DNA of 64,000 bases from IMG/VR virus record IMGVR_UViG_3300015177_000008, positions 32,001 through 96,000 of that record; one strand, given 5' to 3'. Both the position numbers and the translations under genes were made by a program. The notes under the pieces were generated by a model. The model did no database searches and was not told where the DNA came from. It saw only the letters and a list, made by a program, of their open reading frames with translations. The first letter of the stretch is position 1. Each line of letters begins with the position of its first letter. The DNA comes from a virus. Its lineage: Duplodnaviria; Heunggongvirae; Uroviricota; Caudoviricetes. Below are positions 1 to 53,667 of the stretch, in pieces.

Positions 1-2
1 CA

Positions 3-194
3 CGTCGTGACTTTTTTAAGATATGTCGTCAGGCTTACCAAAACGGCAAATCTATAAGGGTCTACATGGCAGACGGTCGTGAAATAGAAGGGATATCAAG
101 AGGCGTTGATGCTTGCCAGGTCACTCTTAAGTTAGAAGACGGCAGAAAAACACTTGTATTCTTCGATTGGGTTGAACGAATTTTACCGTTTTGA
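3..194 (+). CDS. Partial CDS, C-terminal fragment (N-terminus outside window); hypothetical protein
   Basis: Frame open from window start to TGA at 192-194; translation ...KSIRVYMADGREIEGISRGVDACQVTLKLEDGRKTLVFFDWVERILPF; not in ORF track because truncated. Confidence 0.3.
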   Translation, partial: RRDFFKICRQAYQNGKSIRVYMADGREIEGISRGVDACQVTLKLEDGRKTLVFFDWVERILPF

Positions 195-1716: not shown

Positions 1717-1721
1717 AATCG

Positions 1722-1746
1722 AGCGCCCACTATGGGCGCTTTTTTC
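1722..1746 (+). terminator. Rho-independent terminator (same hairpin as 1451-1468, then TTTTTT)
   Basis: agcgcccactatgggcgct followed by tttttcg immediately after stop of 1486-1716. Confidence 0.65.
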
Positions 1747-1769
1747 GTTTCCAATACTTCCACCATAAC

Positions 1770-1793
1770 GCGCCAATGATGGCGCTTTTTTTT
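1770..1793 (+). terminator. Second rho-independent terminator (gcgccaatgatggcgc + T8)
   Basis: GC-rich hairpin followed by 8 T. Confidence 0.6.
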
Positions 1794-2207
1794 ATTGTCT
1801 TTGACTCACTCCAACAACATAAAAATAAGCGCAAAAATAACGCCATAGACGAGCTTTTATATCCTTACCAGCATATACCCATTACTTAGCGCATTAACGC
1901 GCTTAAAACGCGTTATATTGCGTTATGGTGTATGGTTAATCATTGGCTTTTAGTCTTGCTTTATGATCCGCGTTTATTTGTCGGCGCGGATCGGCATTTT
2001 GTTTTGTTCCGTATCCGCTCGCGTATTATGTGCGCGTGATTTTTCACATAATCACACCACTTAATCACGTATGTGATTACGCTACGAAAGAAATCTGGAT
2101 GTCTCAGGCGACGAAAGTCATCATGATTTCCCCGCTCACCTGTCCGACAACCGCTGGTTGGATTCCACCAGCTTCCCGATGTTTTTTCTACATAAAGGCG
2201 AATGCAG

Positions 2208-2281
2208 CCGTTTCCCGAAAAAATCCTGGCCGTTTCCCGTCGGCTCATGAATACGTTCCTCGCCGTTTCTGAAAATTTCCC
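2208..2281. repeat. Three direct copies of CCGTTTCCCG-type motif (same family as the array at 6694-6831)
   Basis: ccgtttcccgaaa (2208), ccgtttcccgtc (2230), ccgtttctgaaaatttccc (2262) in a convergent intergenic region. Confidence 0.4.
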
Positions 2282-2332
2282 TGCGGCAGCTGGTGGCTAT
2301 AGAGAAAGGGCCGTTTCTGGCCCTCTTCTCAG

Positions 2333-2815
2333 TTACACGCCATCAAGGATGTGGATGCGGTTGCTTGCGTATACATTCAACATAAAGTTAGCGCAAAACA
2401 GTTTCCATGTATCAACGCCAGCGGCATACGTAATGTTTTTGCATTTTATTGCATTGTTGGCGATCCGCATCCCCTGCGATACTGCTTTATCGTCGGAAAA
2501 TTTGAACGACGATTGAGTTTTAATCCAGACAGAAATCTGCGTAGCGAACTCAATCAGCTTGGACTGGCAGAATCGCCCGGAGCGCACCGGAAAGACGAAC
2601 GTTCCGAATCCAGAATTTACCACATACGCTTTCTCAAATACCCGCGAGTAACGACGATTGCCAATGATGTCGCGTGCAATAATGCATTTTTCTTGTGCTG
2701 ACAGTTCTACCGTCTCATTGTCGCGCCATGCACCAAGTACTCGTTTTTCAATGTCAGAGAACGTTACAGCGATATTGCCATGTGCGGGTGCGTTTACAGT
2801 AGCGATAAAATTCAT
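2333..2815 (-). CDS. Hypothetical protein (160 aa)
   Basis: ORF; AAACAA..TTGTTT motif 22-40 nt upstream of ATG. Confidence 0.55.
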   Translation of the reverse strand: MNFIATVNAPAHGNIAVTFSDIEKRVLGAWRDNETVELSAQEKCIIARDIIGNRRYSRVFEKAYVVNSGFGTFVFPVRSGRFCQSKLIEFATQISVWIKTQSSFKFSDDKAVSQGMRIANNAIKCKNITYAAGVDTWKLFCANFMLNVYASNRIHILDGV

Positions 2816-3018
2816 GATTAATTCCTTATCGTAAATAACAAATTGTTTTCTTGTTGGTGTTAATTATCGTTGTACGAATAAGGCGTCAAAGTGGAAAGTT
2901 GCGGTAGCCGGACGGGAACAGGTGGGTTTGTCGGTTGCCTGGAGGTAAGAGGTTGGTGTTTTTAGCCTGCGGGGAACAGGATGGTCATTTAAGGCCACCA
3001 CTGCTGGTGGCCTTGTTT

Positions 3019-3951
3019 TCAACTGGAATAAGAATAATCTGTATTGATGAGTAAAGGCGCATCATCCACTAATCCTGACAGAAACCAGCGAGCAGTCCCG
3101 TAAAGTTCAAGGGCGTCAAGATAGCCTTCATGCAGTGCACCAACCCCAAACACATCATTATCAGCCATAGCTACCGCATCTACGGCCAGATACTCTATGA
3201 GTTCTTCCATGCTTTTTATATTTATATCGTCTAAATTCTCCAGTTTGTTCTCAATCTCATTGAAAGGGATATCCGGCATCGAATGCACTATGATTTTTGG
3301 CACATCATTCTCATTATTTACCTCCACAATAACAATTCCATACTCTGTAAAAAGAGAACTAAAGAATCTATTAAACTCTAAATTAACAAAAGATGCCGAA
3401 CCATTTAAACGCTCAACATATGGGGAACGAAAAGCTGAATGTAAATTATTTTTTCTACTTTCCTTGCCATATTCTATAATCAACTCTTTATTTTTGATCT
3501 TCTCGAGTATTCCACCTAGCTCCTCTACAATTAAAGCGCCAGTGTTTTCTCTTTCTTTTGATACTATAGTTGAAAGACTGATCAAGGCTTCTGTTATACT
3601 GTTATTAGAAACGATCAGATGAAATAGCTCCAGCATAGCCAATCGACCACTATCAGTGAACGTAACAAAGTTTATTGCATCTATTTCATTTTTAATCGCA
3701 AGAAACTCACATTTATTTTTGATGTTTTCCCGAATTGACATCTCCACACGCTGTCTTATTCTCAACACCTGCTTAAAGTAAGTATTTTCAAAACATTCGA
3801 CAGAAAATGTCTTCTTACCATCATTCACAATAGCCAATCTGTATTCATATTCAAGACCATTAAGTTCAAGGCAATCACTGTCATATTGGGACCCATCTTT
3901 AACTGAAAACAATTCACTAATGTCAATTTGTCCCAAAAATACTGGTTTCAT
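3019..3951 (-). CDS. Hypothetical protein (310 aa), AT-rich
   Basis: ORF with SD gagga upstream of ATG; no recognisable motifs. Confidence 0.55.
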   Translation of the reverse strand: MKPVFLGQIDISELFSVKDGSQYDSDCLELNGLEYEYRLAIVNDGKKTFSVECFENTYFKQVLRIRQRVEMSIRENIKNKCEFLAIKNEIDAINFVTFTDSGRLAMLELFHLIVSNNSITEALISLSTIVSKERENTGALIVEELGGILEKIKNKELIIEYGKESRKNNLHSAFRSPYVERLNGSASFVNLEFNRFFSSLFTEYGIVIVEVNNENDVPKIIVHSMPDIPFNEIENKLENLDDINIKSMEELIEYLAVDAVAMADNDVFGVGALHEGYLDALELYGTARWFLSGLVDDAPLLINTDYSYSS

Positions 3952-4088
3952 TTTTAATTCCTCGTTTGTTTTCGATGTGATAATTATCGCTGAATGAAAT
4001 AGGCTAAAAAGAAGATTTGTAAGGCAACTATCTGGAAGTAAGGCAAAGGGTGGTCATTTAAGGCCACCAGCATTGGTGACCTTATTCT

Positions 4089-4370
4089 TCAGTGGAGCAG
4101 ACCGATGTCGATGGTATCCCCTGAATCATCCACACGGATCATCAGCATGGCAAAGGCGTTTAGTGGATAGCTTGCGTGCCATTCAGGGAAGCGGTCATCT
4201 CGCATGAAGTCGGCAATGTCATAAACGCATCCCTCAAAGTGGAAGAATCGCGTGCTTACCTGCTCGTCATAATCCACATGATCCATTTCTTGCTGTTCTT
4301 TTTCCGGCAAATCCAGCCATGATTCAAGGAATACATTTTGTGCTTTAGTGGTAATGGTGAAGTCAGTCAT
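4089..4370 (-). CDS. Hypothetical protein (93 aa)
   Basis: ORF with SD ggaggtg; follows a 46-codon ORF in operon-like arrangement. Confidence 0.5.
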   Translation of the reverse strand: MTDFTITTKAQNVFLESWLDLPEKEQQEMDHVDYDEQVSTRFFHFEGCVYDIADFMRDDRFPEWHASYPLNAFAMLMIRVDDSGDTIDIGLLH

Positions 4371-4374
4371 TCTT

Positions 4375-4515
4375 CACCTCCATTTTGATAGAAAATCATC
4401 CATCTCAAGATAGCCATTAAGCTCCTGCTCTGACATGATGATGTTTTCCATGCTTCTGATAGCCTCAAGTAACGACTCCCGATCTGACGAAGCGACAGTA
4501 ACAATGTATTCCATA
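4375..4515 (-). CDS. Small ORF (46 aa), hypothetical
   Basis: ATG at 4515 (MEYIVTVASSDRES...) downstream of motif copies at 4533-4596; below ORF-track length cutoff. Confidence 0.3.
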
Positions 4516-4641
4516 TTATTTCACCACCTAATAAACACGTTGTTTTCTTGTTGTTGTAATTATCGCGGTGTAGATAAGGCAGAAAACAAATTGTTATCGG
4601 GTATAAGAAAATGGCGCGGTTTACGCGCCATTCAAAGAGGA

Positions 4642-5037
4642 TTAAGCGAATACGCTTTCAGGGATTAAGGTGTCAGCAGGAATGCCGGATGTAATGCGCA
4701 GACCATACTGACCAATCCAGGTGGTGCTGGTGTTCAGGCTGGAGGTGAATACGGAATTAACCATATTCATCATGGTTTCAAACACCTCTTCATCAACCTG
4801 GCGGAAGTAGTTCTCGATTTTCAGCAGCAGCGGGTCAGTTGCATCGAGAATGGACTGGTATTGAGTCGCGTACTCGCCGCCGGAGGCATCACCTTTACGC
4901 ACGATCGTACTGGCCTGTACTTCGGCACCAGTTTCGGTGTTGTACGTAACAACGGTGATTTTTGCCACATTCTTACCTTCGGCGGTTTCAGAGGCATAGT
5001 AAACATCAACTGTCAGTTTTTCGCGTTTAACGGTCAT
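4642..5037 (-). CDS. Hypothetical protein (131 aa)
   Basis: ORF; upstream palindrome gtaagtatgtacttac (5081-5096) and TATAAAATA box. Confidence 0.55.
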   Translation of the reverse strand: MTVKREKLTVDVYYASETAEGKNVAKITVVTYNTETGAEVQASTIVRKGDASGGEYATQYQSILDATDPLLLKIENYFRQVDEEVFETMMNMVNSVFTSSLNTSTTWIGQYGLRITSGIPADTLIPESVFA

Positions 5038-5101
5038 TTCACTCTCCGTAGTGTCTTGATTATTTTTCTATTTTATAGCCGTAAGTATGTACTTACAATA
5101 C

Positions 5102-5129
5102 AAAAAAGCCCCGTAAGGATGGCGGGGCT
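5102..5129 (-). terminator. Rho-independent terminator (minus strand)
   Basis: On the minus strand agccccgccatccttacggggct followed by TTTTTT; lies just downstream of the 5164-5475 gene. Confidence 0.55.
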
Positions 5130-5163
5130 GTCGTACTGTCGACTAATTACCACTTGCACATTA

Positions 5164-5475
5164 TCAGGCTATTGCCATCACTGATGCTCTCTGAATTTCT
5201 TGCTGGGCCACGCGGTTAACTTCCATCAAAGCCAGTTCGAGCTGATGTTCCGGCCACATTCTTTGAAATGCCACCCAGCCTTTTCCACGCTGGCGACGAA
5301 CATTCATTACATAACGAGTAAAGGTGTTTTTATCGAAAGACACCGCTGTTTCACGGAACAGACGAATAGAGGTCCCATTGGCAACGATGTCCAGCAAAGT
5401 TAATTGAGCAACCAGTGCAGGCTTCTCTTTTCTCTTCTGGTCTTTGTCCAGACCAAGAACCAATGATTTTTTCAT
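5164..5475 (-). CDS. Hypothetical protein (103 aa)
   Basis: ORF 5164-5505 trimmed to ATG 5475 (MKKSLV); motif AAACAACTTGTTT 12 nt upstream. Confidence 0.5.
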   Translation of the reverse strand: MKKSLVLGLDKDQKRKEKPALVAQLTLLDIVANGTSIRLFRETAVSFDKNTFTRYVMNVRRQRGKGWVAFQRMWPEHQLELALMEVNRVAQQEIQRASVMAIA

Positions 5476-5628
5476 CACAACTCCGTAAACAACTTGTTTT
5501 CTCAATGGCGTAAATAATACCAGTAAGAAAACGGCTACAAAGCATATTGATCAGGCGCATGAGCGATATGCAGGTTCTTCCCTGCGGCTATAGAGAAATT
5601 AAGCCAGCAATGCTGGCTTTGGTTGGGG

Positions 5629-5958
5629 TTACTCGAATACTTCAAGAAACTCCTGAACGTCCCAATGCTGGACGAGGTGAAGATAGACCTTAGAAATCAC
5701 GTCATTTTCGCTATCGCATGTGAAGTAGTACTTCTGGCTGCGGTTGTATGTGTCCACACAAAATTCGCTCATATCCATAAAGTCAGCATCTTCACCCATG
5801 TCGCAAATCATCAAAGCAGGTGCGTCATCACGAGTCATCAGCTCCAGCACCCATCTTGAATTGATCAGAGTGGAAGACCAACCTTCTAACTCATAAAACT
5901 GATCAAACTCTTTTTGAGTTAATTTCTTGATTTGGTTGATGTCGATATTTGTAAACAT
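5629..5958 (-). CDS. Hypothetical acidic protein (109 aa)
   Basis: ORF 5629-6024 trimmed to ATG 5958 (MFTNID); motif AAACATGTTGTTT 13 nt upstream. Confidence 0.5.
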   Translation of the reverse strand: MFTNIDINQIKKLTQKEFDQFYELEGWSSTLINSRWVLELMTRDDAPALMICDMGEDADFMDMSEFCVDTYNRSQKYYFTCDSENDVISKVYLHLVQHWDVQEFLEVFE

Positions 5959-6096
5959 AAAGCAATCCTTAAACATGTTGTTTTCTGAATTGCGTAAACA
6001 ATACCAGTAAGAAAACGGCCACAAAGTATATCGTTACGGTGTTGCGCTGCCCGGAGGTTAATAGCGACAAAAGCCACCGTGCTGGTGGCCTCACTC

Positions 6097-6315
6097 TTAA
6101 TCTTCGTCGCCCGGGAACTCGCTGTGTACCGCGTCCACCAGCTCCCGCTTTTCATCTTCACTCAGCAGGTGCCAGATATCCTTCCCCTTGGGCGGTTCCC
6201 CTTCTGCCGGGACGAACGACCACAACTTGCGGTACAACTCCGGCCCCACTGCATCCAGACACTCAGCCAGGGAATCCACGCCCCACACCTCAACCGTCAC
6301 AGGCATCTTAATCAT
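6097..6315 (-). CDS. Hypothetical acidic protein (72 aa)
   Basis: ORF starting atgattaag with SD gaggatg; motif copy at 6348-6365. Confidence 0.45.
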   Translation of the reverse strand: MIKMPVTVEVWGVDSLAECLDAVGPELYRKLWSFVPAEGEPPKGKDIWHLLSEDEKRELVDAVHSEFPGDED

Positions 6316-6693
6316 CTCTTCATCCTCACTTCGTTTATATAACGTCTAAACATGTTGTTTACTTGTTGGTGTTATTATCGCAATAAGACAAAGGCGGAAA
6401 AGGATTTTATGTCGGGAAAGCCAGGCGGGTAGTGAGTATCCGGGAACGACACGGGAACCAGTATTTACGATATTCTGCTCTACGCGCGCCGCAGGGCTGG
6501 TGGGCAGAATTTTCTTCTCCCCGAAAACCTACTGAAATCGATTGTGACCCGCTGACTGTCTGGCACAATTACGCTGTAGCTGGGCATTCAGAGGGAATCC
6601 AGCGGTAAGCAAGTCCGCCTACGTGAGCGCCTCTCTTCTTCCCGCACATTACAGGTGGGTAGCCGCAACTCTCCCTCTCGCTATACCGGTACG

Positions 6694-6831
6694 CCGCCGT
6701 TCCTGAACCGGCATCGAGCCTTTTCCCGAAATCCACACAGGCAACTCAACCGTTTCCCTGAAAATCCCCAGCCGTTCCCCGAAGGCAACCCAGCCGTTTT
6801 TGTAGCGGGATGCAGCCTTTTCCCTGTATGG
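6694..6831. repeat. Iteron-like array: six direct repeats of GCCGTT(T/C)CC(C/T)GAA with about 22-bp periodicity
   Basis: Copies start at about 6694, 6718, 6749, 6771, 6793, 6815; inverted CGGGAA copies at 6413-6460. Confidence 0.5.
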
Positions 6832-6959
6832 ACCGAAGGCTGACCGTAGGGGTGTTACGGGGGATAAAATCAGGAGTTGAATAAATACGAAAAAGGAGGC
6901 GACACCCCTCCTTCCCTCCCCACTTATACATACCTGGCTTCTTCGCTATACATGTTGTG

Positions 6960-7500
6960 TTTTATCTGTCTCAACCTCTCTATAGGCGTTAATGCTCACT
7001 CCTTCCAGAATGTTCTATACGGCGACTATTTCTGTTGGTGAATTGGGTGTGTTGTTTTCTCTGTCGGTGTATGTGGTTTCGTTCGTTTTGCGGTGGTTCT
7101 TCTATGGGGTGTTCTCGTCGTTTTGGTGATTGTTCTTCTCCGTGTATGGAGTAATGGCAGGTGGGCGATTCCTTTCGTTGTTGTGTTTGAGTTGTTTGTC
7201 TGGAGTGTGTGAAAGGCTTTTGTAGTTATTCGTGTATTGGGTAATGGCGTTTCCCGTGATTGTTCTGTTTCGTGTCTTTTGGGATTGAGAGAAACCTTGC
7301 GGTTACAGGCTTCGTTGGGGTTTCAGTGATTCTGGTGTTTCTTCGCTGTTTGGGGAATGGCGTGTCGTGGGTATCGCGCGTATGAATGTTTTCGGATTGC
7401 CTGTGAAAGTTAGGTTGGTTGTCCGGTAGCCTGGGAAGAAGAGGTGGGTCTTTTCGGTAGCCTGCCATAAAGAGGTTGGTTGTTTTTGGTAATGGCATAT
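6960..7500. repeat. Strand-skewed (GT-rich on plus) noncoding region with degenerate tandem repeats
   Basis: Recurring core G(T/C)TGT(A/T)T(G/T)GG(A/G)(G/T)AATGGC at about 7141, 7231, 7344, 7485; only low-complexity ORFs. Confidence 0.45.
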
Positions 7501-7897
7501 GTGTTATTTAGTTGTTTTGTTATACCTGAAAATAAGTTGTTTATATGGTTGTGTAACGCAACGGGAGCGATTTTGAGCGTGTGTTTTTGTTGGTAGTGTG
7601 TTTGGTCGTCTGCGGTGAAAATTGGACGCTGTGGCGCTGTCTGCTGCGTAGAATTACGGGTATAAGCAGTGATGTGTGAAAACGTCAATTTTTTAGACCA
7701 AATCGGGTGAAAGCGTTGATGTTTCGTTGATCTGTTATTCAGTTGTTTTCTTGATTGTATAAACAACCATAACTTATTGATATTTAAGGATATGATTGCG
7801 GGTATGGAAGGGGAGTAGTGGCGATCAACGGATTCTTATAGAAAAGAATCAAATTGTGACCGCCATTATCAACTGATTGATTTGTTTACTTGTGTAG

Positions 7898-8296
7898 TCA
7901 GTTCTCGAAATGAATAGGGTCAACGTAATGCCGCTCACCGCTTTTACCATTACACAGCACTGTAACTTTCGCCTTTTCACTCCAGGCTGAGTATAGAAAG
8001 TTCCCATCAGGTTGAACATGGTAACGAGAGAAGTAAACATCGCCGACTGAGGCGTCGAACATGTTCCTATCTTTTTCACTTTGGGCAAGCGAGATGGATA
8101 TCACCGAATTCCCATTTGGGGAAACGATTTTAAATTTATTCCCTATATCCATAACAATATTGTAACCAGGTAATTGCTTGTGTGTTTCCGGATCTATTTT
8201 CATGCATCGTGGGTACACGATAGTGTTAGGCTCTTCAACTGGCGTGGCATTAGCAGAAAGCACAAAAAATATTAGTGCCAATGGTGCATATTTCAT
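7898..8296 (-). CDS. Secreted protein (signal peptide), function unknown
   Basis: 132-aa ORF; N-terminus MKYAPLALIFFVLSANA; SD gaggg. Confidence 0.5.
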   Translation of the reverse strand: MKYAPLALIFFVLSANATPVEEPNTIVYPRCMKIDPETHKQLPGYNIVMDIGNKFKIVSPNGNSVISISLAQSEKDRNMFDASVGDVYFSRYHVQPDGNFLYSAWSEKAKVTVLCNGKSGERHYVDPIHFEN

Positions 8297-42018: not shown

Positions 42019-42120
42019 GTATGCTGTCAGCGGTAATTGATAGTCTGTCAGCGGTTCACCGTATGCTGCCAACTGTTTTTGGTATTCTGTCAGCGGCAAA
42101 TCAAGTATGCTGTCAGCGGT
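42019..42120 (+). repeat. Upstream iteron array (5 copies of GTATGCTGTCAGCGGT, 22-bp spacing)
   Basis: Copies at 42019, 42041, 42061, 42083, 42105 immediately upstream of repA. Confidence 0.75.
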
Positions 42121-52871: not shown

Positions 52872-53175
52872 TGTTCTCTGTAAAGGTGTCTGGCATCGTC
52901 TGGTTCGTTAACGTTTACTAAACCAATGGTGACAAAAATTAGTTATCTTTGAAAAATAAAGGTTGCATGAAAAGAAGGGGTATGCGTTAATAGCATCGTT
53001 GGTTTGCAAGACAGACCTTATGTAAGCAGTTTTAGTAAAGCAGTCTCAGTTCAGTGTTATCTTCTGATTTCCCTTCTTCGTGAGTCTCCTCCTTAAGTGC
53101 CTAAGTAAGTCCCAATCTATACAGATCAAATTCTCGCCGCACTATGTGGCTCACAAAATTAAGAAGGTAATATCT

Positions 53176-53391
53176 ATGTCTAATAAAATGACTGGTTTAG
53201 TAAAATGGTTTAACTCTGATAAAGGCTTTGGCTTTATTTCTCCTGCTGATGGCAGTAAAGATGTTTTTGTACATTTTTCGGCAATTCAGAGTAATAATTT
53301 CCGCACTTTGGAAGAAGGCCAGCAGGTCGAATTCTCTATCGAGAATGGGGCTAAAGGCCCAGCAGCAGCAAATGTCGTTGCTCTAAGCTGA
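53176..53391 (+). CDS. cspA: Cold-shock protein, CspA family
   Basis: [38 protein letters not shown] with RNP1/RNP2 motifs; long 5' leader upstream. Confidence 0.85.
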
Positions 53392-53667
53392 TTCAACGCT
53401 GATGATCCTCATTTCTACAATAACGAAGACGGTGTAAGCCTGAGTGGATAGATTTGTAGGATTGTACAAGTTGAATAAATTAGCATGGTAAGGCCATGCT
53501 AATTAAATCGACACAACGGCCAGTTTATTCCATAAAAGTGAATTGCCCATTGTGGCGAAATGCGGGGTTGCCGCATGAATAGTCAAAGGCAGAAGCTAAC
53601 TGCCGGCATGGCAAAACAAAGTGCGTAAGAGGAGTGACTTCCTCAACAAGCGCCATAATTCTTTATA

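What the first reader, a model, noticed from the sequence alone, without database searches (positions are those of the whole stretch)
6316..7897. 1.6-kb noncoding stretch with a 22-bp-periodic iteron-like array and strongly strand-skewed degenerate repeats
No convincing ORF lies between 6316 and 7897. At 6694-6831 six direct repeats of GCCGTT(T/C)CC(C/T)GAA recur with about 22-bp spacing, with three more copies at 2208-2281. Then 6960-7500 is GT-rich on the plus strand with four or more degenerate units sharing the core ..TGG(A/G)(G/T)AATGGC... Candidates are a partition centromere (parS-like), a second origin, or a C-rich/G-poor Rho-loading region for minus-strand transcripts.
Basis: partly seen in the sequence, partly recalled or inferred. 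Interest (0 to 1): 0.6.

Follow-up and report, generated by a model that had tools for sequence, protein, structure and literature searches.

The report
Conserved non-coding control locus of phage-plasmids
A 1.6-kb gene-free stretch kept in over 800 SSU5-type phage-plasmids of gut bacteria combines protein-binding repeat arrays with a one-strand A+C-rich tract that most likely stops transcription through the host factor Rho, but its function has never been studied.

Summary
The window is an E. coli SSU5/pSLy3-type phage-plasmid. Positions 6316-7897 hold no conserved ORF. The six-copy 22-bp iteron array, three more copies at 2207-2275, and the extreme strand skew are all real. The skew is G+T 0.70-0.76 on the plus strand, against 0.50 ± 0.04 for the window.

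The locus is syntenic and alignable in 836 plasmids of Escherichia, Klebsiella, Enterobacter, Salmonella and others. A similar architecture recurs in an Acinetobacter phage-plasmid and in distant metagenomic relatives.

Read on the minus strand it has three parts:
- a block of invariant binding boxes with an early-promoter motif;
- a 620-nt tract that is 74% A+C, ORF-less and structure-free, with repeated GCCATTAC…ACACGGAGAAGAAC units, ending in a hairpin;
- the phased iterons.

Best reading (confidence 0.4): the tract is a Rho-loading transcription barrier or attenuator, flanked by regulator sites. In the LF82/Cyrano homologue the region sits at the RNA-seq floor between expressed neighbours, with no intrinsic terminator at its entry.

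The arrays could instead be a centromere or part of a lytic origin. I rejected a structured RNA, a GcvB, Hfq or CsrA sponge, a RepA iteron array and a lambda-like cos site. No paper found in the searched library mentions it.

The parts
7870..7882 (-). IHF-consensus-like site AATCAATCAGTTG (WATCAANNNNTTR) at the upstream edge of the locus
   Evidence: Read directly from the sequence. The family consensus here is aatcAA..CGTTGA, partly at 90% or more, in 26 diverged homologues. Binding was not tested.
7819..7865 (-). Block A: invariant 9-bp inverted repeat TGGCGGTCA / TGATCGCCA around a TATAAG box (7835-7840), with CGTTGA boxes
   Evidence: Both arms are identical in 19 of 19 distinct homologues, so there is no covariation; this fits a DNA site rather than an RNA helix. 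The exact pattern occurs once per genome in 64 IMG/VR contigs.
7714..7759 (-). Block B, part 1: H-type early promoter / 5'-UTR motif (TACAAT, AAGAAAACAA) followed by two TCAACG boxes (7725-7730, 7714-7719)
   Evidence: The same motif precedes at least 10 minus-strand genes of the window. It is at least 90% conserved in the family consensus.
7658..7688 (-). Block B, part 2: TTGACG, 17 nt, TTATAC(CC). Either a sigma-70-like promoter with a weak -10, or a GTTGAC box plus an inverted TATAAG box
   Evidence: The hexamers are invariant and the spacer varies in 13 diverged homologues. The strict promoter scan does not call it. TATAAG lies on the plus strand at 7661-7666.
7030..7650 (-). A+C-rich tract (A 41%, C 33%, G 13%, U 14%), ORF-less and without predicted structure: the putative Rho-loading / barrier RNA
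   Evidence: Composition. It is conserved in 26 homologues at about 65% identity. There is no conserved ORF. Consensus folding energy is near 0 and the structure conservation index (SCI) is 0-0.15, except 0.29 in one window (7160-7041). The MFE is -122.7 kcal/mol for 776 nt, z = -1.2.
7571..7578 (-). GCTCAAAA word inside a conserved segment (CGCTCAgAA.cGCTC.CgTTGCGTT)
   Evidence: Shared with distant relatives L178, L180-L182, L185, L195 and L196; in L180, L182, L195 and L196 it lies about 100 nt before the first small ORF.
7424..7485 (-). Two tandem 31-nt units ACC(C/A)ACCTCTT..CAGGCTACCG, plus a partial third
   Evidence: Conservation is 0.80-0.86. A second pair at 2902-2963 lies just upstream of the -35 of the 160-aa gene.
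7129..7158 (-). Best-conserved unit GCCATTACTCCATACACGGAGAAGAACAAT. Further GCCATT(A/C)C units lie at 7489-7496, 7354-7361 and 7241-7248
   Evidence: Four to five same-orientation copies sit at conserved positions in all homologues. The block scores 0.91 for conservation. CATACACGGAGA(GT)AGAACAAT is shared with Acinetobacter plasmid NZ_CP115642.1.
6890..6928 (-). TATAAG box (6923-6928) and a G·U-rich hairpin (6890-6916). The hairpin reads as an intrinsic terminator in the E. coli clade
   Evidence: Terminator-like call. Ten pairs are kept in 18-21 of 21 homologues with G-C / G-U / A-U changes, but there is no clean double compensation.
6696..6828 (+). Array of six direct repeats GCC(G/T)TT(T/C)(C/T)C, about 22 bp apart (two helical turns)
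   Evidence: The repeats are conserved and the spacers vary across clades.
6406..6660 (.). Variable cassette. It is non-coding here and in Klebsiella types (with a Chi site at 6496-6503), and is replaced by an 80-aa plus-strand ORF in the SSU5 / pHCM2 / Enterobacter types
6344..6402 (-). H-type promoter / 5'-UTR of the 72-aa gene (6097-6315)
   Evidence: Repeated in several intergenic regions of the relatives and of the window.
2207..2275 (+). Second, three-copy array of the same iteron, 4.5 kb away and downstream of the 160-aa gene

Best explanation
The stretch is a conserved, protein-non-coding control locus of the SSU5-type phage-plasmid backbone, read on the minus strand like all its neighbours.

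Shown:
- It opens with a block of invariant protein-binding boxes (an IHF-like site, a 9-bp inverted repeat, TATAAG and GTTGAC boxes) that carries an early-promoter motif.
- It continues with about 620 nt that are 74% A+C, poor in G and U, ORF-less and free of conserved secondary structure.
- It ends with a hairpin and six helically phased iterons.

Inferred:
- Any minus-strand transcript that enters is untranslated, unstructured and has C far above G. It may come from the variable accessory gene upstream or from the locus's own promoter.
- Host Rho would therefore load on it and terminate it. The tract would act as a transcription barrier or attenuator, insulating the upstream accessory and replication operons from the downstream cassette of small early genes.
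- The flanking boxes and iterons would bind phage-plasmid or host proteins that decide when the barrier is passed.

The proteins involved, and any antitermination, are unknown.
For: - The region is non-coding.
- The minus strand is C 33% and G 13%, while the rest of that strand in the window has G>C.
- This composition is kept in 26 homologues that have drifted to about 65% identity.
- There is no conserved RNA structure in the tract on either strand, and the folding energy is very low. This is what the established definition of a rut region requires: roughly 80 nt or more, C-rich, G-poor, unstructured and untranslated.
- Directly after block A, every clade has about 30 nt that are C-rich and G-free, although the sequence itself varies.
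- Both flanking genes, the promoter motifs and the terminal hairpin all point the same way, on the minus strand.
- In the 94%-identical Cyrano plasmid of E. coli LF82, the two ORFs annotated inside the region stay at log2 2.3-4.7 in all 10 RNA-seq samples. The floor is about 2.3. The flanking genes reach 9.2 and 7.8 (PMC9928086 supplement).
- No intrinsic terminator lies between the expressed upstream gene and the tract.
- The region is present in essentially every Enterobacteriaceae plasmid that carries the family's terminase.
Against: - There is no direct evidence for Rho, and none that the tract is transcribed in the lytic cycle.
- A rut site needs about 80 nt, not 620.
- Composition alone does not explain the conserved GCCATTAC…ACACGGAGAAGAAC units, one of which is shared with Acinetobacter.
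- The sigma-70-like element has a poor -10 and may be only a pair of binding boxes.
- U is depleted as well as G, which Rho does not need.
- The low RNA level in lysogens is equally explained by a repressed promoter plus an unrecognised terminator.
- The downstream genes have promoters of their own, so what the barrier protects is unclear.
Confidence: 0.4

Rival explanations
1. The phased arrays are the centromere of the phage-plasmid's type Ib-like partition system (ParA of 222 aa plus a 117-aa partner). The arrays are the six iterons here, the three at 2207-2275, and perhaps the other boxes. They would be dispersed away from the par operon, as in N15. This concerns mainly 6696-6828 and can coexist with the best explanation.
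For: - The direct repeats sit two helical turns apart, with conserved repeats and free spacers.
- Distant relatives carry, at the same place, 6-9 CCTATAAGG boxes at 12/22/33/55-nt spacing, plus a 3-copy cluster.
- An IHF-like site is present.
- The par operon has no repeat array next to it.
- The 117-aa partner and the region have the same genus distribution, and both are missing from Yersinia pMT1.
- A degraded 64-kb E. albertii plasmid without structural genes keeps both the par genes and the region.
Against: - The arrays are not adjacent to parAB.
- The co-distribution is what common descent alone would give.
- The iteron motif is absent from the par promoter, where type Ib centromere-binding proteins usually autoregulate.
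- The idea does not explain the skewed tract.
Confidence: 0.2
2. The locus is the lytic replication origin, or a bipartite ori/crr-like pair of sites. A repressible promoter would transcribe into the strand-asymmetric tract next to iterons bound by an unidentified initiator. RNase HI and the UvsW-like helicase of the element would process the transcript.
For: - There are helically phased iterons in two arrays 4.5 kb apart. This recalls P4 ori and crr (own knowledge).
- An IHF-like site is present.
- A promoter motif points into the tract.
- The element encodes its own replisome, RNase HI and a UvsW-like helicase, but no lytic origin is annotated.
- The locus keeps a fixed position 5-9 kb from that helicase across very distant relatives.
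- It is silent in lysogens.
Against: - There is no AT-rich unwinding element beside the iterons; GC is 0.48-0.59.
- No initiator gene is adjacent.
- The RNA made from the minus strand would be C/A-rich, which is unfavourable for a stable R-loop.
- No plus-strand promoter was found.
Confidence: 0.15
3. The tract encodes a trans-acting long non-coding RNA of about 0.75-0.85 kb, made in the lytic cycle. Its structure-free A/C sequence and repeated units would bind or titrate a host or phage factor, for example Rho itself or an RNA-binding protein such as the element's FljA-like protein.
For: - The tract has the anatomy of its own cassette: a promoter motif, a tract and a terminal hairpin, like the neighbouring one-gene cassettes.
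- The repeated units are conserved as sequence, and one of them as far as Acinetobacter.
- An FljA-family RNA-binding regulator is encoded 6 kb away.
- A prophage-encoded anti-sRNA (AgvB) is a known precedent (own knowledge).
Against: - The RNA is not detectable in lysogens.
- There is no Rfam match.
- The sponge ideas I tested failed. GcvB complementarity exists only in the E. coli clade and is below chance elsewhere. There is no (ARN)n enrichment for Hfq. There is no significant similarity to the fliC leader.
- An RNA that loads Rho is translocated along and released, not held.
Confidence: 0.1
4. The locus marks the virion DNA end or a packaging / entry region, like the repeat-rich, promoter-bearing, A/C-rich left end of T7.
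For: - It contains arrays of short boxes plus promoters and a long leader, and it lies at the border between gene modules.
- TerL is of the T4 type, not the lambda type.
Against: - The locus is 12 kb from terS/terL.
- No deposited phage record starts here.
- No terminal repeat was seen.
Confidence: 0.05

Closest known systems
Rho-dependent terminators with rut sites in untranslated phage leaders (lambda nutR-tR1; Rho silencing of prophage genes). From own knowledge.
   Same: The RNA is untranslated, C-rich, G-poor and unstructured. It lies just downstream of a repressible early promoter region and of an expressed gene. RNA is lost across it without an intrinsic terminator.
   Different: It is about eight times longer than a rut site. 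It is also poor in U. It carries conserved repeated words and is framed by repeat arrays. No nut- or put-like element or antiterminator was identified, and Rho dependence was not tested.
Iteron arrays of plasmid and phage-plasmid replicons (P1 incC/incA, F ori2/incC) and the two-site P4 ori/crr. From own knowledge.
   Same: Direct repeats lie about 22 bp apart in helical phase, in two arrays a few kb apart. The repeat sequence changes between clades as if co-evolving with a binding protein.
   Different: No initiator gene lies between or beside the arrays. There is no AT-rich unwinding element. The element's known RepB-type initiator has other iterons 35 kb away.
Dispersed centromere sites of the phage-plasmid N15, and the repeat-array centromeres of type Ib/II partition systems (pB171 parC1/parC2, R1 parC). 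From own knowledge.
   Same: Phased short repeats sit away from, or on both sides of, a transcription unit. The par operon has no adjacent repeats.
   Different: Binding by the 117-aa partner is unknown. The motif is not in the par promoter. The arrays flank a non-coding tract, not par genes.
Left end of phage T7 (CCTAAAG repeat series, early promoters, long leader). From own knowledge.
   Same: It has a series of short same-orientation boxes (CCTATAAGG in distant relatives), promoters, and a long untranslated A/C-rich leader before small early genes.
   Different: There is no evidence that a genome end lies here, and the element is maintained as a circle.

Membership tests
Rho-dependent terminator / rut region | The RNA is not translated | tested here: met
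   No conserved ORF, indels not in threes, no 3-nt periodicity. PGAP annotates none.
Rho-dependent terminator / rut region | At least ~80 nt that are C-rich, G-poor and unstructured | tested here: met
   C 33% and G 13% over 621 nt; YC dimers 13.5 per 100 nt against 9.8 for the window. MFE -0.16 kcal/mol per nt, z = -1.2. Consensus structure energy about 0.
Rho-dependent terminator / rut region | Transcripts end in or after the tract without an intrinsic terminator | tested here: inconclusive
   In the Cyrano homologue the RNA falls from log2 6-9.2 to 2.3-4.3 with no terminator-like hairpin at the entry. These are gene-level counts in lysogens only; no 3'-end mapping was done.
Rho-dependent terminator / rut region | Termination is relieved by bicyclomycin or rho/nusG mutations | not testable with these tools
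   Needs an experiment.
Iteron-type replication origin | Three or more direct repeats in helical phase | tested here: met
   Six copies at about 22 bp, conserved across clades.
Iteron-type replication origin | An adjacent AT-rich unwinding element | tested here: not met
   GC is 0.48-0.59 in 200-nt windows on both sides of the array.
Iteron-type replication origin | A cognate initiator gene next to the iterons, with the same repeats at the known origin | tested here: not met
   The RepB-type gene lies about 35 kb away, and its iterons are TATGCTGTCAGCGG. The neighbouring proteins have no Pfam hit. The 160-aa protein shows no known fold.
Partition centromere (parS / parC) | An array of binding repeats | tested here: met
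Partition centromere (parS / parC) | Located beside or inside the par operon | tested here: not met
   ParA (PF09140, PF13614, PF01656) and its 117-aa partner lie outside the window, tens of kb away. That operon has no repeats of its own.
Partition centromere (parS / parC) | Bound by the centromere-binding protein; stabilises a plasmid in cis | not testable with these tools
   The only indication is the same genus distribution for the 117-aa protein and the region.
Any described RNA family (Rfam 15) | A covariance-model match at the gathering score | tested here: not met
   No hit in the region at gathering score. Only chance-level hits at E values up to 10.
Structured non-coding RNA | A conserved secondary structure with covariation | tested here: not met
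   The structure conservation index (SCI) is 0-0.15 in the tract on the minus strand, except 0.29 in one window (7160-7041), and no z is below -3 in the tract on either strand. Outside the tract only a G·U-rich hairpin and an invariant inverted repeat are seen.
GcvB sponge / anti-sRNA (SroC, AgvB type) | Conserved complementarity to GcvB R1 | tested here: not met
   A 10-13-nt match exists only in the E. coli clade. In the other clades the counts do not exceed those of shuffles.
Type III toxin-antitoxin antitoxin RNA | Tandem repeats of about 30-45 nt, then a terminator and a ToxN-like toxin gene | tested here: not met
   There are only 2.3 copies of 31 nt. No PF13958-type toxin is present, and the neighbours have no Pfam hit.
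Lambda-type cosB (terminase small-subunit R sites) | A lambda-like terminase, with the site next to it | tested here: not met
   TerL is of the T4 type (PF03237 / PF17289) and lies 12 kb away. The shared CGTTTCC core is recalled from memory only.

The most novel reading that the evidence does not exclude
The locus could be a so-far undescribed, lineage-wide cis/trans control device of large siphovirus phage-plasmids. It would combine box arrays that bind a dedicated protein in helical phase on both sides of a deliberately structure-free A/C strand. Once de-repressed, that strand would work either as a transcription-activated lytic origin or as a decoy RNA that occupies Rho (or another single-strand binder) at the switch to lytic growth.
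Probability: 0.2. Interest if true: 0.8.

Novelty: new variant of a known kind. Interest (0 to 1): 0.55.

Why it matters
SSU5-type phage-plasmids (the SSU5_pHCM2, pSLy3 and pKpn groups) are common in clinical E. coli, Klebsiella, Enterobacter and Salmonella, and some carry resistance genes. How they choose between plasmid life and lytic growth is essentially unknown.

This locus is their largest conserved gene-free segment in the window. It is retained in about 800 sequenced plasmids. Its architecture, and a few short sequence words, reappear in Acinetobacter and in environmental relatives. Annotation pipelines leave it blank.

Whichever reading is right (transcription barrier, centromere or lytic origin), it is a defined 1.6-kb target for deletion and reporter experiments. 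Those experiments would expose a control point of the whole family. They would also give a natural example of selection for a structure-free A/C strand.

Tried and rejected
- **Rfam.** At gathering score and at permissive thresholds there is nothing in the region.
- **Single-sequence and alignment folding, both strands.** There is no structure beyond what composition gives.
- **Coding potential.** None. tblastx against the rest of the window finds only the promoter module.
- **RepA titration array (incA-like).** The repA iterons are different.
- **GcvB sponge.** A 13-nt perfect match at 7190-7178 raised this idea, but it is confined to the E. coli clade.
- **Hfq (ARN)n sponge.** ARN runs are no more frequent than in shuffles.
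- **CsrA sponge made of the GGA-containing iterons.** The expression is far too low.
- **Mimic of the fliC leader for the FljA-like protein.** Only a 9-mer is shared, which is not significant.
- **Type III antitoxin repeats.** There is no toxin.
- **Lambda cosB-like R sites.** The terminase is of the wrong type.
- **Mini-replicon built on the 160-aa gene that the other repeat copies frame.** The model is confident (pLDDT 86) but has no Rep-like or any known fold.
- **Motif scan of IMG/VR with ATACACGGAGA..AGAACA.** Apart from SSU5-type and Acinetobacter-type contigs, the hits show no skew and look like chance.
- **A fragment in 210-250-kb Klebsiella plasmids.** It is an IS-flanked remnant.
- **Literature searches.** Nothing was found on this region; one of the searches was badly framed and wasted.
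Full report
**What the window is**

The region matches 661 plasmids by megablast and 836 by the more sensitive blastn. Nearly all are non-mobilizable replicons of about 110 kb from Escherichia, Klebsiella, Enterobacter, Salmonella, Citrobacter, Cronobacter and Shigella. It also matches the phages SSU5, Cyrano and PhiR41_1. The tested 881-nt stretch 7000-7880 is 100% identical to NZ_CP117002.1.

This is the SSU5 super-group of phage-plasmids; the E. coli members are called the pSLy3 group (PMC11652158).

The locus lies between the packaging, ParB-like and helicase genes on one side and the long minus-strand array of early, nucleotide-metabolism and replication genes on the other. Both direct neighbours are on the minus strand (6097-6315 and 7898-8296).

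**Check of the observation**

All three statements hold.

- *No gene.* PGAP leaves the stretch empty in the closest records. The ORFs that some phage records annotate differ between relatives. Pairwise indels are mostly 1, 2, 11 or 19 nt. No frame is conserved and there is no 3-nt periodicity.
- *Array.* Six copies of GCC(G/T)TT(T/C)(C/T)C start at 6696, 6718, 6749, 6771, 6793 and 6815. Three more lie at 2207-2275. Four strict matches fall within 140 bp; the largest cluster in any of 300 shuffles was 3, and that occurred once.
- *Skew.* Over 6950-7650 the plus strand is 70-76% G+T, against 50.3 ± 4.1% for 300-nt windows of the whole window. The rest of the window has C>G on the plus strand, so this tract runs against the genome trend.

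**Conservation**

A syntenic stretch of 1.6-1.8 kb without conserved genes exists in all clades, and it aligns over its whole length at about 65% identity. The neighbouring 72-aa gene is about 90% identical.

Per-column conservation in 13, and then 26, diverged homologues shows sharply conserved islands separated by drifting sequence. The A+C richness of the minus strand is kept in every homologue: A 34-41%, C 30-34%, G 13-19%, T 14-18%.

The counts per genus equal those of plasmids that carry the family's terminase, with two exceptions. Yersinia pMT1 has the terminase but lacks the region. Acinetobacter is too distant for blastn.

**Anatomy on the minus strand**

1. *7886-7655: invariant words.* This part holds:
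   - an IHF-consensus-like site;
   - a 9-bp inverted repeat identical in 19 of 19 homologues, around a TATAAG box;
   - a copy of the motif that precedes at least ten minus-strand genes of this element, a -10-like hexamer plus AAGAAAACAA;
   - two TCAACG boxes;
   - TTGACG, 17 nt, TTATAC, with invariant hexamers and a variable spacer.

   The last element looks like a sigma-70 promoter with a weak -10. The strict scan does not call it, and it can also be read as a GTTGAC box plus an inverted TATAAG box. The exact block A pattern occurs once per genome in 64 viral contigs.

2. *7650-7030: the A/C tract.* It contains:
   - two tandem 31-nt units at 7485-7424, with a second pair at 2902-2963 just upstream of the promoter of the 160-aa gene;
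   - four to five same-orientation units GCCATTAC…ATACACGGAGAAGAAC at conserved positions.

3. *6928-6890: end of the tract.* A TATAAG box and a G·U-rich hairpin lie here. The hairpin reads as an intrinsic terminator in the E. coli clade and stays pairable in 21 homologues.

4. *6828-6696: the iterons.* The repeats are conserved and the spacers are free.

5. *6660-6406: a variable cassette.* SSU5, pHCM2 and Enterobacter types carry an 80-aa plus-strand ORF here.

6. *6402-6344: the promoter module of the 72-aa gene.*

**RNA or DNA?**

The tract has no conserved secondary structure on either strand. On the minus strand the consensus energy is about 0 and the structure conservation index (SCI) is 0-0.15, with one window at 0.29. 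The 776-nt minus-strand RNA folds at only -122.7 kcal/mol, z = -1.2.

A and C cannot pair with each other, whereas the complementary G/U strand folds well at -204.9 kcal/mol. I therefore infer that selection acts on the minus-sense single strand to stay unstructured.

Rfam gives nothing.

**Expression**

In the 94%-identical Cyrano plasmid of E. coli LF82, a re-analysis of GSE154648 is available in the supplement of PMC9928086. It lists the two ORFs annotated inside the region (CYRAN_103 and CYRAN_104) at log2 2.3-4.7 in all ten samples. The upstream gene CYRAN_102 reaches 9.2 and the downstream gene CYRAN_105 reaches 7.8.

Between CYRAN_102 and the tract there is no intrinsic-terminator-like hairpin. 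Immediately after block A, every clade has a G-free, C-rich stretch whose sequence varies.

**Best explanation**

The tract is untranslated, C-rich, G-poor and unstructured, and it is co-directional with its neighbours. These are the established requirements for Rho loading. The expression gap without a terminator fits this.

I therefore take the tract to be a Rho-dependent barrier or attenuator, with regulator-binding boxes around it, at confidence 0.4.

This does not explain three things: the 620-nt length, the conserved words, and the depletion of U.

**The arrays**

The arrays are a separate question. The element's RepB-type initiator lies 35 kb away and has other iterons.

The only partition ATPase (222 aa, MipZ/ParA family) and its 117-aa partner lie outside the window, and no repeats sit next to them. 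The partner has the same genus distribution as the region.

A centromere therefore remains possible (0.2). An origin is less likely (0.15), because there is no AT-rich element and no initiator gene. The 160-aa protein framed by the other repeat copies gives a confident model with no known fold.

**Deep relatives**

- *Acinetobacter.* The phage-plasmid NZ_CP115642.1 has a TerL only 59% identical. It shows the same gene order and a 1.85-kb CDS-free gap at the same place. The gap has same-strand A/C richness and three collinear short matches (BLAST E 0.17-3.3), including CATACACGGAGA(GT)AGAACAAT.
- *IMG/VR contigs.* Using the UvsW-like helicase as an anchor, 80 distant contigs were fetched. In many of them the strongest G+T window of the 20-kb locus lies 5-9 kb downstream of the helicase.
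- *A subset examined in detail.* These relatives show 2-3 CCTATAAGG boxes, then a leader rich in A and C and poor in U that contains GCTCAAAACG, then either small ORFs or 6-9 more boxes at 12/22/33/55-nt spacing, then a further 3-copy cluster.
- *Caveat.* In the most distant relatives part of the skew may be coding.

The architecture (boxes, asymmetric tract, phased array, small second array) is thus older than the Enterobacteriaceae clade, and the repeat word changes between clades.

**Verdict**

This is a real, conserved and unannotated composite element.

No paper found in the searched library deals with this region.

Its parts resemble known kinds of element (a rut region, iterons), but their combination, the length of the tract and the conserved words are not described. 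I therefore rate it a new variant of a known kind, with interest 0.55.

Noticed in passing
window 2852, 4549, 5499, 5985, 6363, 7752, 8861, 8908, 22285, 23010, 45367 (minus strand): A family-specific promoter / 5'-UTR module sits 20-40 nt before many minus-strand genes, and before parA in NZ_CP019283.1. It consists of a -10-like GATAAT/CAATTA followed by AAGAAAACAAnnTGTTTA, which is often a palindrome. It could be the operator of a global regulator or of a translational repressor.
   Followed up: partly
window 2165-6503; hairpins at 2984-3012 and 6070-6095: Chi (GCTGGTGG) occurs 15 times in the window against 1.4 expected from shuffles. Seven of these lie within 4.4 kb, and several are built into terminator hairpins GGCCACCA…TGGTGGCC.
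   Followed up: partly
window 1-194 (3' end of the gene; full gene at L003:6333-6857): The element encodes a full-length FljA-family protein (PF03614, E = 5e-81), with a weak Hfq-like match in its C-terminal part. FljA is the RNA-binding repressor of phase-1 flagellin.
   Followed up: partly
window 8993-11155 (-) and 11184-12284 (+): metG (methionyl-tRNA synthetase) and apbC/mrp lie divergently side by side. From own knowledge, this is their arrangement on the E. coli chromosome, which suggests a captured chromosomal segment.
   Followed up: no
window 52998-53416 (+): A full-length cspA thermoregulator 5'-UTR (RF01766, 185.7 bits) is present.
   Followed up: no
window 42019-42120: The plasmid-origin iterons are five copies of TATGCTGTCAGCGG at a 21-bp period, next to the RepB-type initiator gene.
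   Followed up: yes
window 61145-61396; also 41032, 44560, 46509, 51764, 58671: The immunity region has GGTAAGnnCTTACC operator-like palindromes. A class of TATAAGT -10-like boxes recurs at several early-gene starts.
   Followed up: partly
window 7178-7190 (minus strand): There is 13-nt perfect complementarity (CAAACACAACAAC) to the GU-rich R1 seed region of the host sRNA GcvB. It occurs only in the E. coli clade, with P about 0.01 against shuffles, so it may be chance.
   Followed up: yes
window 1717-2332: A second non-coding stretch of about 600 bp lies where plus- and minus-strand genes converge. It holds GTGATT/AATCAC inverted repeats, the three-copy iteron array and a bidirectional terminator.
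   Followed up: no
window 7898-8296 and the equivalent position in relatives: The gene just upstream of the locus differs between relatives: 132 aa here, 396 aa in NZ_CP019283.1, a coiled-coil protein in Cyrano, and ArdA in Acinetobacter. This makes it an accessory-gene hotspot. The Cyrano gene is expressed in lysogens.
   Followed up: partly
L039 (NZ_CP034165.1, E. albertii, 63.8 kb): A decayed derivative, full of IS elements and lacking the structural genes, still keeps repA, parA with its partner, and this region at 93% identity.
   Followed up: partly
[not shown]
   Followed up: yes
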